Source: Octopus sinensis
Taxonomy: Eukaryota
Assembly (NCBI RefSeq): GCF_006345805.1
Contig: NW_021829335.1
Location: 1 to 6,486, forward strand
Length of the DNA: 6,486 nt
Direction of reading: 5' to 3'
Positions within the stretch are counted from its first letter, which is position 1. Every line of letters starts with the position of its first letter. The notes beneath the pieces are model-generated. The model was not told where the DNA came from, made no database searches, and saw nothing but the letters and a program-made list of their open reading frames with translations. Below are positions 254 through 6,435 of the stretch, piece by piece. The position numbers were made by a program, and so were the translations under genes.

Positions 254-292
254 CAAAAATTTCGTCCCTTTGGTACCGGTAAAATAAATACT

Positions 293-473
293 TATTTCTT
301 TATTACCCACAAGGGGCTAAACATAGAGGGAACAAACAAGGACAGACATAGGTATTAAGTCGATTACATCGACCCCAGTGCGTAGCTGGTACTTAATTTA
401 TCGACCCCGAAAGGATGAAAGGCAAAGTCGACCTCGGCGGAATTTGAACTCAGAACGTAGCGGCAGACGAAAT
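293..473 (-). mobile_element. 5'-truncated SINE unit (3' member of a head-to-tail dimer)
   Basis: About 95% identical by eye to 480-660, period ~186 bp. Keeps the B box (439-449, minus strand) but lacks the A-box head. Confidence 0.85.
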
Positions 474-709
474 AATACCTATTTCTTTAATACCCACAAG
501 GGGCTAAACATAGAGGGAACAAACAAGGACAGACATAGGTATTAAGTCGATTACATCGACCCCAGTGCGTGACTGGTACTTAACTTATCGACCCCGAAAG
601 GATAAAAGGCAAATCGACCTCGGCGGAATTTGAACTCAGAACGTAATGGCAGGCGAAATACGGCTAAGCATTTCGTCCGACGTGCTAACGGTTCTGCCTG
701 CTCGCCACC
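474..709 (-). mobile_element. Full-length tRNA-derived SINE (octopus OK-like), 5' member of the dimer
   Basis: Minus strand reads GGTGGCGAGCAGGCAGAACCGTTAGCACG...GTTCAAATTCCGCCGAGGTCG...; B box at 625-635. AAATAAATACT at 282-292 and 713-723 flanks the dimer as a candidate TSD. Confidence 0.85.
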
Positions 710-1948: not shown

Positions 1949-2704
1949 CATTTTAGCGTGTATAAACGTACATTCAGATATATATACGCTCATAGATGTT
2001 TCGCCCCCACTCTCTCTCTATATATATGTATGTGTGTATGTGCGTGTCTGCGTGAAATATAGGAAGTACGAGGAAACATCAAATAATTTTAACGGCTGAA
2101 TCTACTTGGAGATGAATAAAAGCATATAATATATAGGGCTAAACATAGTGCAGCGAGAAGGGGTATCATTTCTTAATCAGTCAGCAGCTTGGAAAGTTAT
2201 AAAATGACACTTTCTTGTATCGACGGTATAGATTATAGATCTTTGATTGAATTTTTTTACGCATCAGGAAAATAATAATAAGGAAAAAAAGCTCTTTTGA
2301 AATTCCCAAGGGAGAATTTGTGCGTGTGCCGGTATGGCGAAATTAATCTTTTAGTAAGCTGAGGCAGCGTGTATGATGTAGTGTTTTCCTGTCGAACAGA
2401 GGATGCATGACTGAACAGTTCTTAAAGGATTGTATACTACCAAATACTTCCCGTAAATTATGATAAATTTTACACTGACTCTCAATTTCTAAATTTACCC
2501 TGAAAATAATGTGTTTTCCAGAAGTTTGCGGAACGATCTACTGTGTTGGTGCGAGGAACCTTTAAAGTATGCACGGTAAGCATTTTTTAGCTTGATGATG
2601 CGTTGCTGATGAAGATATCAACCCGGTATGCAAAGTCTTTTTCCTCCTGTGATTTCGCAATTGCGTAGTGGATACCTTTTGCTGTATATTTAATTGCAAT
2701 ATGT

Positions 2705-3086
2705 GGAGGCGCAATGGCCCAATGGTTAGGGCAGCGGACTCGCGGTCATAGGATCGCGGTTTCGATTTCCAGACCGGGCGTTGTGAGTGTTTATTGAGCG
2801 AAAACACCTAAAAGCTCCACGAGGCTCCGGCAGGGGATGGTGGTGATCCCTGCTGTATTCTTTCACCACAACTTTCTCTCACTCTTACTTCCTGTTTCTG
2901 TGTACCTATTTCAAGGGTCAGCCTTGTCACTCTCTGTGTCACGCTGAATATCCCCGAGAACTACGTTAAGGGTACACGTGTCTGTGGAATGCTCAGCCAC
3001 TTCCACGTTAATTTCACGAGCAGGCTGTTCCGTTGATTCGGATCAACCGGAACCCTCGTCGTCGTAACCGACGGAGTGCTTCCATC
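2705..3086 (+). mobile_element. Full-length tRNA-derived SINE (octopus OR1/OR2-like, tRNA-Arg-like head) with TSD
   Basis: A box TGGCCCAATGG at 2715-2725 and B-box-like GTTTCGATTTCC at 2759-2770, with tRNA-like spacing. TSD AATTGCAATATGT (2692-2704) / AATTGCAATATTT (3087-3099), 12/13 identical. Confidence 0.9.
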
Positions 3087-3235
3087 AATTGCAATATTTT
3101 CGCATTTTAGCATTAAGAATATTTACCCCTGCAGCAGCTTACCTTAAAGTTGGTTTTGTTATAAATATTATGGAATTTAAGCACGTTCTTCATCTGATCA
3201 TCATCTTTTCATATCGATACAACGTTATTTTGCGG

Positions 3236-3545
3236 CAGAGGTTCCCAACCATATTTTATGAACCCCTTTTGATTCTTGTTTTACTTGGGTGGACCCGTTT
3301 AGCCATTCGATCTTTTAAAAATATCCTATTGTAGTTTTATAATTAAATATTATTAGGACTTGAATAATAATTGTTAAAATATTTTGTTTATTATGGAAAT
3401 ATAACAAATTTACTGCACATAAGTTTAACTGTTCTGAAGTGCAATTCTTCTTGACCCATGAGAAAATACTATGGGACGCCCAATTTACCATATTGCATCC
3501 ATGGACGCACAAAAGTCTTTTATAGACTCCGGTTGAGAACCCCTG
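3236..3545. mobile_element. Non-autonomous hAT (Charlie-like) DNA transposon / MITE, 310 bp
   Basis: TIRs CAGAGGTTCCCAACC (3236-3250) and GGTTGAGAACCCCTG (3531-3545) are 13/15 complementary. 8-bp TSD TTTTGCGG (3228-3235) / TTTTGAGG (3546-3553), 7/8. AT-rich non-coding interior. Confidence 0.85.
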
Positions 3546-3601
3546 TTTTGAGGGAAAGCAGTTTATTGATTGTGAAGAGGTTAAAAAGATAATATCGAGT
3601 G

Positions 3602-3628
3602 TTATTATCATTATCATTATTATTATAA

Positions 3629-3660
<32 letters not shown>

Positions 3661-3699
3661 GTATTATATTATTATTATTATTATTATTATTATATTATT
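3602..3699. repeat. (TTA)n microsatellite abutting the 3' end of the retrotransposon
   Basis: Directly visible. Confidence 0.95.
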
Positions 3700-4850
3700 C
3701 AGTAGTTTTTTTTTTTTATAGCGTGCTTTCACTTCACTACCGAGCGCAGCTCTGTGTGCCTTGGGTATGTGCTGTGATTTGTTGTGATGCTTTGATGGTT
3801 ATTGTATGGAAAGTGTTCTGCGTAGGATGTGTGCAGTGTGCTAGTAGTGCAATTTTCTGTATGTTATATGTGTTTGTAAGTCCTGGTGTTTTGTTATGTA
3901 TTTGTCTGAATATTTTTTTATCATGCCTAATGCACCTACTATGATAGGAATTGTTTCTGTTTTCAGGTTCCACATTCTAGTTACCTCTGTTTCCAGGTCT
4001 TTGTATTTTGAGAGTTTCTTTTAGAGTTTCTTTTAGAGACACGTTGTCATCTGCCGGTATTGATACATCAATTAGAAAGCATTTTTTTTCTTCATGATCT
4101 CTGACAACAATATCTGGTCTGTTGGCCTTAATTTCTCTATCTGTGTGTTTCGGCATATCCCAGAGTATGGTTGCTTTCTCGTTTTCTGTGACCTTTCTGG
4201 TGTGTGCCTATACCATCTTTTTTCTGTTGTTATTTCCATAATGTTGGCATAGCTTCCAATGTATGTAGGTTCCAACTCTGTCATGTCTGTGAATATATTC
4301 CTTCTTAGCCAGGACTGGGCAGCTAGAGATAATATGATTTATTGTTTCTTGTCCATCTCCACATATTCTGCAGTTACTTGTAATATTTCTTTTCATTACA
4401 TGTTTTTGGTACTTTGGTGGGGAGGCTTTGGTCTTGTGCTGCAATTAAAAATCCCTCTGTTTCTGCTTTGAGTCCTGAGCTTCTCAACCATTGCTGGGAT
4501 TTTCTTTGTCTATTTCTTTTGCGTTTAGTTTAGTGCAGTATTTACCATGAAGGGGCTTTTCTTGCCATCGTTTTATCATGGCTCGTTGCTGTTCTATTTT
4601 TAGTTTGGATTTCATTTCTTTATAGCTTTTGTTGTTTCTTTTCATCATCTTCTTCTTCTTCTTTGTGTTTATTAGGTGGTATGATGTCTGTTTGTATTTG
4701 TCGGCTTCCTTAAATACTGAGAACAGTTTTTTGTTTTGCTCGTGTTTGCTGCTATCTGGATCAGTTTTCCTTCCTTCTGAAGTAGGTATTTTTGCAGTCC
4801 TATGGTGGTATTTTATAGTAGTTTTCCAGCTGTATAAGGCCTATACCACC
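3700..4850 (-). mobile_element. 5'-truncated R4/Dong-clade (RLE-type) non-LTR retrotransposon inserted in a (TAA)n array
   Basis: C-terminal ORF remnant plus ~100-nt 3' UTR ending A12-CTACTG-(AAT)n. TTA arrays lie immediately on both sides. Dong elements are known to target TAA repeats. Confidence 0.88.
3799..4850 (-). pseudogene. Frameshifted C-terminal part of non-LTR retrotransposon ORF: post-RT region, CCHC zinc knuckle, PD-(D/E)xK restriction-like endonuclease
   Basis: Manual translation across frameshifts gives GGIGLIQLENYY, WQEKPLHGKY, WLRSSGLKAETEGFLIAAQDQSL, CRICGDGQETINHIISSC (4372-4319), RHDRVG, ILWDMPKHTDREIKANRPDIVV (RPDI 4120-4109), LIDVSIP, KLSKYKDLE, IPIIVGALG and AHILRRTLSIQ* (stop at 3801-3799). 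Confidence 0.92.
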
Positions 4851-4904
<54 letters not shown>

Positions 4905-4956
4905 TATTATTATCATCATCATTATTATCATTATTATATTATTATTATTATTAGAC

Positions 4957-4990
<34 letters not shown>

Positions 4991-5023
4991 TATTATTATC
5001 ATTATATATTATTATTATTGTTG

Positions 5024-5061
<38 letters not shown>
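4851..5061. repeat. (TTA)n microsatellite with TCA/TTG variants
   Basis: Directly visible. Confidence 0.95.
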
Positions 5062-5063
<2 letters not shown>

Positions 5064-5069
<6 letters not shown>

Positions 5070-5562
5070 GTACTGGGAAGATATTAAAACACTTAATCGA
5101 GTGTTTATTTGATTCGATATCTGAAGGATTTTACGCTCAAGAGATGAATATTTTGCTAAGTAGATGGGATTAGGTTATCAATAATGAAGGGACTTATTAT
5201 CTTGATTAAATATATCAATTAAGACCAAAGAAAAATTTATTTCTGTTTCTTCTCATTTTCATATGTGACAGGACTTTCTAACTTTTCACTTATTACTGCA
5301 ACCAACACGGATTTGGGTCATTAGCACCAGCACAACGACCAGTACCAGAACAAGCACCACCATAATCAACACCATCACCATCATCACAACAACATCCCTA
5401 CTACCATCACAACCGTATATGTATATATACATACACCCATATATACATTTATATTACGTAAACTAACATATTGGTATCAAGTATGACATCTTATACGGAC
5501 ACGATACCTCACATTTTTAGGGGACAGGATTAAGTGTCTTAATCTCTTCCCAGTACTTCACA
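5064..5562. mobile_element. Putative TIR/foldback element, TG...CA ends flanked by TTAA
   Basis: 5061-5098 and 5528-5565 are reverse complements (36/38). TTAA at 5060-5063 and 5563-5566. The inverted repeat is certain; its mobile-element nature is inferred. Confidence 0.5.
5323..5455. repeat. Degenerate (CAN)n triplet tract followed by TA/CA dinucleotide tract
   Basis: CAC/CAG/CAA/CAT periodicity at ~5323-5414, then TATATG/CATA-like repeats. Confidence 0.75.
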
Positions 5563-5563
5563 T

Positions 5564-5604
5564 TAATAATAATGATAATAATGATAATAATAATAATAAT
5601 ATTT

Positions 5605-5635
<31 letters not shown>

Positions 5636-5726
5636 TAATAATAATAATAGTAATAATAATAATAATAATAATGATAATAATAATAATAATAATAATAATA
5701 GTAATAAATTAATTATAATAATAATG

Positions 5727-5771
<45 letters not shown>

Positions 5772-5864
5772 TATATAATAATAATGATAATAATAATAAT
5801 AATAATAATAATGATGATGATGATGATGATGATGATGATAATAATAATAATAATAATGATGATG

Positions 5865-5904
<40 letters not shown>

Positions 5905-6037
5905 TAATAATAATAATATAATAATAATAATATATAATAATAATAATAATAATGATGATGATGATAATAATGATAATAATAATGATAATGATGATGATGA
6001 TGATGATAATAATATTAATAATAATAATAATAATAAT
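5564..6037. repeat. Long (TAA)n/(TGA)n compound microsatellite
   Basis: About 470 bp of TAA with embedded TGA blocks (~5812-5838, ~5953-6007). Confidence 0.97.
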
Positions 6038-6435
6038 TGCATTTCTTTTAAAGTTCTTGCTTGTGTTTCTCTTGTATAGCAGCAGTGTTGTATTAAATTA
6101 CTGTATCTTCTGACATTTGTTTTCGGCTATTATCTCCCGCCGGTAATAACAGTGGAATAAATGAAGAAAAAGGAAAAGAAGAAAGGAAAAGATGAGAGAG
6201 GAAGAGGAGGAGTTTGAAGTGGCTCGGTGAGGATGAGGATGTGGGGAGGGTTGGGGTTAGAGTGGATGCAATGAGTAGGCAAGATGCTTTCATGAAAGAT
6301 GAAAAAAAAAAACCATCTCTTCACTTTCGTTCTCACCCACACCCTGCCTCCTCTCTTATTCTTTCAAATCCACATATGTAACCCCCACAACGCAGAAACA
6401 CATACATTCATACATGTATGCATACACATACATAT

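What the first reader, a model, noticed from the sequence alone, without database searches (positions are those of the whole stretch)
4851..6037. Foldback structure: 38-bp inverted repeats across which the microsatellite flips from (TTA)n to (TAA)n
Seen: TAATGTGAAGTACTGGGAAGATATTAAAACACTTAATC (5061-5098) is the reverse complement of 5528-5565 at 36/38 positions, around a ~430-bp non-coding spacer. Each arm runs straight outward into a triplet array of opposite polarity, so the complementary arms extend about 200 bp further. The boundaries read TTAA|TG...CA|TTAA. Inference: simple insertion into an existing array would leave the same polarity on both sides, so the arrays are part of, or seeded by, the termini. 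Options are (a) an unrecognised MITE family whose ends carry or generate TAA arrays (TTAA TSDs are known for piggyBac and Kolobok, but TG..CA is not the piggyBac CCY end), (b) two outward-facing 3' ends of a (TAA)n-tailed retroelement, or (c) a one-off inverted duplication. Under (a), the element would spread target sites for TAA-specific Dong elements, and one sits in its left array.
Basis: partly seen in the sequence, partly recalled or inferred. Interest (0 to 1): 0.75.

Follow-up and report, generated by a model that had tools for sequence, protein, structure and literature searches.

The report
One-off inverted copy, not a transposon
The apparent foldback element is a single local event, not a new transposon family: a short stretch beside a TAA repeat sits as a backwards copy inside an old transposon remnant about 430 bases away, likely made by a slip of the DNA-copying enzyme, and a repeat-seeking retrotransposon likely jumped into the new repeat afterwards.

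Summary
The 36/38 inverted arms and the TTA-to-TAA flip are real. They are not the ends of a mobile family: the arm occurs only twice in the 2.72 Gb genome, both here. The left half of the 'spacer' is the 3' end of an old mariner relic whose upstream part lies outside the left arm. That relic is split by a 1,492-base insert (3604-5095) bracketed by an exact 10-base duplication; the insert is 33 bases plus TAA array copied in reverse from the right arm, with 3-base microhomology at the junction, and a young 5'-truncated Dong-type LINE inside the array. Best reading: a local template-switch insertion, then an ordinary Dong insertion (0.6). Main rival: one Dong insertion whose cDNA captured neighbouring DNA (0.27). 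Contigs of public runs support the right arm and, indirectly, the left junction; the left-arm junction is unconfirmed. The same look does recur genome-wide from a different, multi-copy repeat, which the scan has already described on other DNA.

The parts
3188..3235 (+). mariner relic, upstream piece (left limit not mapped)
   Evidence: BLAST hit 3188-3230 to family copy L007, collinear with the next piece
3236..3545 (.). hAT-like MITE nested in the mariner relic (label recalled from its ends and 8-base duplication); not part of the event
   Evidence: 13/15 inverted ends, 7/8 duplication at 3228-3235 / 3546-3553
3546..3603 (+). mariner relic, piece left of the insert
   Evidence: aligns to family copies directly upstream of the place where 5096 aligns
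3594..3603 (+). 10-base duplication, left copy (ATCGAGTGTT)
   Evidence: identical to 5096-5105; occurs only twice in the window; present once in family copies
3604..3699 (-). outer (TTA)n array of the insert; its first letters share 2 bases of microhomology with the duplication
3700..4850 (-). 3' 1,151 bases of a young Dong-type non-LTR retrotransposon, 5'-truncated, AA microhomology with the array at 4850/4851
   Evidence: about 95-97% to family copies; 21 private substitutions in 1,141 columns; longer copy L083 encodes RVT_1
4851..5062 (-). inner (TTA)n array of the insert
5063..5095 (-). left arm: 33-base reverse copy of 5531-5563, carrying both mismatches
   Evidence: right-arm letters agree with contigs of runs X1, X4, X5
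5096..5105 (+). 10-base duplication, right copy; its first three bases (ATC, 5096-5098) also belong to the arm = junction microhomology
5096..5279 (+). mariner relic, 3' end (left half of the 'spacer')
   Evidence: 40 other places listed at 74-85% identity from 465 candidates; family copy L017 matches SETMAR/Mos1 transposase, E 1.5e-17
5280..5527 (.). rest of the spacer: ACC- and TA-rich simple repeats, then single-copy DNA
5528..5563 (+). right arm = inferred donor, native single-copy flank of the TAA array
5564..6037 (+). (TAA)n array = inferred donor array; outer flank single copy

Best explanation
The structure is a single-locus inverted copy: 33 bases of unique DNA and part of the adjoining TAA array were inserted in reverse into an old mariner relic 430 bases away with a 10-base duplication, likely by a polymerase template switch, and a Dong-type LINE likely inserted later into the new array. 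Shown: the insert limits, the duplication, the 3-base and 2-base microhomologies, the single-locus arm. Inferred: a strand made right to left copied the target as far as 5096, its 3' GAT end paired with the ATC of the same strand at 5528-5530 (a fold-back with a loop of about 430 bases, or a switch to the sister template), it copied the arm and roughly 300 bases of array, and returned 10 bases behind its point of departure. The mirror-image path, or end-joining with a templated patch, gives the same sequence and cannot be told apart. The result is a new TAA array of opposite polarity; no function is claimed.
For: Arm found only twice genome-wide, exact 18-mer and 27-mer with 2 mismatches allowed; arm plus inner flank 2 of 2 candidates are this locus. 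Mariner pieces 3546-3603 and 5096-5279 abut in family copies with exactly 10 bases of overlap in 20 of 27 usable copies (of 29); both decamers carry a variant found in 1 of 29 copies, so they are duplicates of this copy. ATC shared by arm and duplication; weak prior likeness of target and donor (score reached by 5 of 228 array edges and 72 of 3,000 random places). Matches the '4 before 1' template-switch class: one large insertion with direct and inverted repeats (PMC7954356, section 8 read) and the MMB-TI signature (PMC8421209, passages). Dong step is ordinary: arrays on both sides in 57 of 72 other copies and no junction-adjacent duplication of 10 bases or more outside the arrays in 72; 2 of 44 arrays in 599,900 evenly spaced bases carry a Dong end. 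Contigs of X4 and X5 follow 3338-3594 and stop 34-35 letters later, as expected on entering a simple repeat (inference).
Against: No empty allele was seen; the ancestral state is inferred from paralogues. Order of the two steps is not shown: arm divergence (2 of 36) fits the Dong copy's age (P 0.14-0.38), so one event is not excluded. The duplication abuts the Dong-side array, as target-primed insertion would leave it. Descent of the left arrays from the right array is not shown by variant units (positive one way, P 0.004-0.15; no excess the other way). The copied length (about 340 bases) and distance (430) exceed those of the surveys cited (maximum 128 bases; templates within 100 bases), though both surveys searched only short ranges. 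The locus lies on an unplaced 6.5 kb contig with indel errors.
Confidence: 0.6

Rival explanations
1. One event: Dong inserted by target-primed reverse transcription at a non-repeat site in the mariner; its cDNA left the RNA after 1,151 bases, jumped onto the nearby TAA array through AA microhomology, copied 212 bases of array and 33 of flank, and joined the other end of the cut through ATC, giving the 10-base duplication.
For: One event explains the duplication, the tail-side array next to it and the two microhomologies. Ages are compatible. Precedent in human L1: 22 templated insertions among about 3,600, templates under 250 bases (10.1101/2024.08.27.596794, passages).
Against: 0 of 72 other Dong copies show a junction-adjacent duplication of 10 bases or more outside their arrays (pipeline recovered the window's as positive control); the target is not a TAA repeat; the L1 templates lie within about 15 bases of the site, not 430; no second case with a unique arm among 39 opposite-polarity array pairs, window included (28, 11).
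Confidence: 0.27
2. Assembly or long-read artefact: chimeric read or mis-join through TTA arrays on a small unplaced contig.
For: The window is a whole 6,486-base unplaced contig with 19 private indel columns in the Dong copy; both flanks are single copy, so no second assembly of the locus checks it.
Against: The two mariner pieces complement each other with a 10-base overlap and a shared private variant; the arms differ by two substitutions; contigs from X1, X4, X5 span 5203-5573/5575 and X4, X5 contigs end where the left array begins. One of these runs may be the assembly's own sample.
Confidence: 0.07
3. Retrocopy of a local TAA-ended transcript (arm plus array) by a LINE reverse transcriptase, landing next to its source; Dong came later.
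For: Duplication, tail-side priming and 5' microhomology are the target-primed signature (established knowledge; for the features).
Against: Retrocopies land genome-wide; 430 bases from the source is not expected unless nascent RNA is used in cis. No RNA data were examined.
Confidence: 0.04
4. An unrecognised MITE family with TG..CA ends and TTAA target duplication that carries or seeds TAA arrays, or two outward-facing ends of a TAA-tailed retroelement.
For: Inverted arms and symmetric TTAA are present. Microsatellite-targeting MITE/Mutator families exist in plants (PMC4486113, PMC8449440; search listing only). Back-to-back repeat ends with outward TAA arrays occur in this genome from another family.
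Against: Arm is single-locus; spacer is continuous with mariner DNA outside the left arm; the other family's marker motifs are absent from the window.
Confidence: 0.02

Closest known systems
Short-range template-switch mutations, four-point model, '4 before 1' class (Walker et al. 2021, PMC7954356; passages and section 8 read)
   Same: One large insertion, an inverted repeat of nearby DNA and a short direct repeat at the return point.
   Different: About 340 bases copied before the Dong (their median 12, maximum 128), mostly microsatellite; no ancestral allele in hand; a LINE lies inside.
Microhomology-mediated templated insertions, MMB-TI (PMC8421209; passages read)
   Same: Insertion near and inverted to its template, microhomology at both junctions, seen as germline variants.
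   Different: Template 430 bases away (their search: within 100); invertebrate genome; mechanism not tested here.
L1 insertions with locally templated 5' DNA (10.1101/2024.08.27.596794; passages read)
   Same: LINE 3' fragment joined to a copy of neighbouring DNA under 250 bases, inside a target duplication.
   Different: Element here is a TAA-targeting Dong type; template is far from the site; no other Dong copy examined shows an outside duplication.
Dong elements, TAA-targeting non-LTR retrotransposons (PMC3812793, passages; Dong-R4 reported as recently active in an octopus, PMC13282606, passages)
   Same: 5'-truncated copy in a TAA array in the family's usual orientation; 7,294 exact 3' ends in G000.
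   Different: Nothing unusual in the copy itself; only its host array is unusual. Clade not tested by a tree.
Microsatellite-associated MITEs and MuTAnT (PMC8449440, PMC4486113; search listing only)
   Same: Inverted ends abutting microsatellite.
   Different: Those are multi-copy families inserted into existing repeats; this arm is single-locus and does not delimit an element.

Membership tests
MITE / non-autonomous TIR transposon | Dispersed copies sharing the ends | tested here: not met
   2 matches genome-wide, both in the window
MITE / non-autonomous TIR transposon | Inverted repeats delimit the element; inside is not continuous with outside | tested here: not met
   5096-5279 continues the mariner piece 3546-3603 outside the left arm
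MITE / non-autonomous TIR transposon | Target duplication around the TIR-to-TIR unit | tested here: not met
   TTAA symmetry is forced by reverse copying of a palindromic array edge; the real duplication brackets 3604-5095, which holds one arm
MITE / non-autonomous TIR transposon | Copies or an autonomous partner in sister genomes | not testable with these tools
   G000 has no relatives in the genome search
3' ends of a TAA-tailed LINE/SINE, back to back | Arm is the end of a multi-copy element | tested here: not met
Template-switch / MMB templated insertion | Insert matches a nearby template in inverted orientation | tested here: met
   31 of 33 bases, template 430 bases away
Template-switch / MMB templated insertion | Microhomology at both switch points | tested here: met
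   3 bases at 5096-5098, 2 bases at 3602-3603; short, so individually weak
Template-switch / MMB templated insertion | Direct repeat when the return point precedes the departure point | tested here: met
   10 of 10 bases
Template-switch / MMB templated insertion | Ancestral allele without the insert | tested here: inconclusive
   Inferred from mariner paralogues; no empty allele in G000 or seen in four runs
Dong-type LINE (the copy at 3700-4850) | Reverse transcriptase ORF with C-terminal zinc knuckle and restriction-like endonuclease | tested here: inconclusive
   RVT_1 E 2e-26 and zf-RVT just under cut-off in copy L083; endonuclease motif judged by eye from recall
Dong-type LINE (the copy at 3700-4850) | Insertion into (TAA)n | tested here: met
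   arrays on both sides in 57 of 72 other copies
Dong-type LINE (the copy at 3700-4850) | Placement in the R4 clade by RT tree | not tested
   No named reference fetched; the original Dong paper is not held
LINE insertion with captured local DNA (one-step model) | The element family makes target duplications at non-repeat sites | tested here: not met
   0 of 72 copies with a junction-adjacent duplication of 10 bases or more; 2 of 72 had a shared word that long, both away from the junctions

The most novel reading that the evidence does not exclude
A TAA-specific Dong retrotransposon inserted at a non-repeat site and, while copying itself, jumped onto a TAA array 430 bases away and duplicated it in reverse: a sequence-specific LINE building its own target array on both sides and founding a new, oppositely oriented landing pad. 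Two literature searches gave this only for human L1, not for a microsatellite-targeting element.
Probability: 0.27. Interest if true: 0.42.

Novelty: new member of a known kind. Interest (0 to 1): 0.2.

Why it matters
Little, as it stands: one readable example of how a microsatellite can be born by local inverted copying and then serve as a retrotransposon target, and a warning that inverted arms with a symmetric TTAA at array edges mimic a MITE. It would matter more if the one-step reading held and recurred, since a target-specific LINE would then be making new targets for itself.

Tried and rejected
Allelic empty site in G000: none; both flanks are single copy. Public runs: no listed contig of X1, X2, X4, X5 covers 5050-5067 or joins the left arm to the spacer, and 5122-5139 has no depth in two runs; the tool warns that holes prove nothing, and short low-depth links between repeats are, as I recall, pruned from such contigs, so this is no evidence either way. 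Short pieces at 5078-5111 in three runs look like mariner paralogues and were not counted as support. Dating by arm versus Dong divergence: no power. Variant-unit homology of the arrays: confounded by length, contradictory. First duplication scan missed the window's own decamer and was replaced. Rfam on the window and 8 loci: only sub-threshold microRNA hits on simple repeats; ARAGORN on 7 loci: no tRNA. Pfam on the window's short Dong frame: nothing above cut-off. Idea that the left arm is itself mariner-derived: rejected, likeness is weak and the arm matches the right arm at 31 of 33. My note calling the back-to-back repeat a TAA-tailed SINE was wrong: its array is internal. Paper searches showed no report of this structure in a cephalopod; supplements were not read.

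Full report
Setting. The window is the whole of contig C5806 (6,486 bases) of a 2.72 Gb animal genome with 13,516 contigs.

Observation. 5061-5098 is the reverse complement of 5528-5565 at 36 of 38 positions and the match ends abruptly inward. The arrays are (TTA)n 4851-5062 and (TAA)n 5564-6037, with a third, (TTA)n, at 3602-3699. The arm match has E 1.4e-9 in a whole-genome search and the region folds better than 100 of 100 shuffles. The outward extension is simple repeat only.

Not a family. The exact 18-base core occurs twice in the genome, both in the window; a 27-base pattern with 2 mismatches allowed gives the same two places; 5445-5570 finds only itself and the left arm (2 of 2 candidates). 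The flanks 6035-6330 and 1870-2690 have no second long match.

The spacer is a broken mariner. 5096-5279 matches a dispersed repeat at 74-85% (40 other places listed, 465 candidates, 40 scored); an open frame of one copy matches SETMAR and Mos1 transposases (E 1.5e-17). In those copies the sequence upstream of this piece matches window 3546-3603, 1.5 kb to the left. Aligning the two pieces separately to 29 copies, 27 gave a usable match for the left piece and 20 of these put the overlap at exactly 10 bases; 5 gave 13-14 (extrapolation across a small insertion in the window, my inference) and 2 were outliers. The decamer ATCGAGTGTT stands at 3594-3603 and 5096-5105 and nowhere else in the window; 1 of the 29 copies has this exact variant. 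So one mariner relic was opened by an insert at 3604-5095 with a 10-base duplication. The unit between the two arms is therefore not an element: the left arm is inside the insert, the right arm outside it.

Anatomy of the insert, read on the minus strand: 33 bases copied from 5531-5563 (31 identical), 212 bases of TAA array, 1,151 bases of LINE 3' end, 96 bases of TAA array. The three bases ATC at 5096-5098 belong to both the duplication and the arm; the outer junction shares 2 bases. Target and donor had a weak prior likeness (score reached by 5 of 228 other array edges and 72 of 3,000 random places), suggestive only.

The LINE. It is about 95-97% identical to the best family copies, has 21 private substitutions in 1,141 columns (1.8%; median of 29 relatives 1.15%) and is cut at its 5' end with AA microhomology to the array. 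A near-complete copy (about 4 kb) encodes a reverse transcriptase (RVT_1). There are 7,294 exact 3' ends in the genome. TAA targeting is the described property of Dong elements (PMC3812793, passages), and Dong-R4 is listed as recently active in an octopus (PMC13282606, passages); clade placement was not tested. From 69 loci I took 90 Dong ends, dropped 3 overlapping loci and 7 copies whose 5' end lay outside the stretch and 1 too near an edge: of the 72 left, 57 have arrays on both sides and none has a junction-adjacent duplication of 10 bases or more outside the arrays; 2 share a word that long away from the junctions; the routine recovered the window's decamer. These copies are biased to long ones and to the start of one chromosome, and some are nested. 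In 60 evenly spaced stretches (599,900 bases) 2 of 44 TAA arrays carry this Dong end, so a later hit on a new array is unremarkable.

Reads. Five runs of three studies hold part of 5063-5563. Contigs of X1, X4 and X5 span 5203-5573/5575 with 2-9 other letters, none listed in the right arm, and X2 spans 5262-5534: the right arm, its spacer side and its array are real, and both arm mismatches lie on the left copy or are window errors. Contigs of X4 and X5 follow 3338-3594 with 2 differences and end 34-35 letters later; that is what entry into a simple repeat gives, whereas an unbroken mariner allele should run on about 100 letters more (inference; the letters were not shown). X4 and X5 are one study, and one run may be the assembly's own sample. 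The left-arm junction itself remains unconfirmed.

Mechanism. Shown: an inverted copy of nearby DNA, microhomology at both ends, a direct repeat at the edges. This is the '4 before 1' class of the four-point template-switch model, described as one large insertion with direct and inverted repeats (PMC7954356, section 8 and passages), and the MMB-TI signature (PMC8421209, passages). Inferred: a strand made right to left reached 5096, folded back or switched so that its GAT end primed at 5528-5530, copied arm and array, and re-entered 10 bases behind. A Dong then entered the array. I give this 0.6, and about 0.9 to the core claim of a real, single, local inverted copy. The main rival (0.27) is one Dong insertion whose cDNA jumped to the neighbouring array; human L1 does something similar in 22 of about 3,600 insertions, with templates under 250 bases but within about 15 bases of the site (10.1101/2024.08.27.596794, passages). 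For it: economy, and the duplication next to the tail-side array. Against it: no Dong copy with an outside duplication in 72, and a non-repeat target. Ages do not separate the two (P 0.14-0.38), nor do array variants.

How common is the look? Of 28 opposite-polarity array pairs within 3 kb in 556,659 repeat-enriched bases (window included) 2 had inverted inner flanks: the window and L066; of 11 pairs in the evenly spaced sample, 2. All three others come from one multi-copy repeat (2,940 exact motif matches): 8 of 27 loci are back-to-back pairs 96-152 bases across, the inverted match goes on beyond the arrays, and a conserved block follows the array in 21 of 27, with a hammerhead-like core (label recalled) in 11. 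Its TAA array is internal, and 6 of 73 Dong copies lie in or beside it. Earlier notes of this scan read what appears to be this repeat as the end of a Penelope-type element with a tRNA-derived head (e1-9506287 and others; not tested here beyond these counts).

Verdict. Observation confirmed; option (c) supported; a new instance of a known mutation class with a common LINE inside. Interest 0.2.

Noticed in passing
L200, L205, L210, L213, L216, L223, L225, L226 (around 1350-1700); also L066:4927-5136, L163:3587-3724, L194:2622-2734: A multi-copy repeat with a tRNA-like head, an internal (TAA)n array and a hammerhead-like block stands back to back in 8 of 27 loci, giving a TTA...TAA foldback; 6 of 73 Dong copies lie in or beside its array, so it supplies Dong targets. 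Earlier scan notes call it a Penelope terminal repeat.
   Followed up: partly
window 2703-3086: tRNA-like SINE (label recalled) with an exact 11-base duplication at 2692-2702 and 3087-3097.
   Followed up: partly
window 3236-3545: hAT-like MITE with 15-base inverted ends and an 8-base duplication, nested in the same mariner relic.
   Followed up: partly
window 282-660: Two tandem copies, 187-base period, 94% alike, of a SINE-like repeat; 93-239 is repeated at 1714-1859.
   Followed up: no
L068, L079, L083 and other near-complete Dong copies, 5' end: Full-length copies begin with a variable number of short tandem units containing CACCGGGGACG directly after the TAA array.
   Followed up: no
   Followed up: no
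Dong copies L082, L104, L132, L101, L072, about 960 bases from the 3' end: An internal GAA run (coding a Glu/Asp tract) is expanded to varying lengths among copies and mimics a truncation point.
   Followed up: no
window 5203-5573: Runs X1 and X2 share several differences from the window that X4 and X5 lack (about 3% against 1%), suggesting a second lineage that carries the right arm.
   Followed up: no
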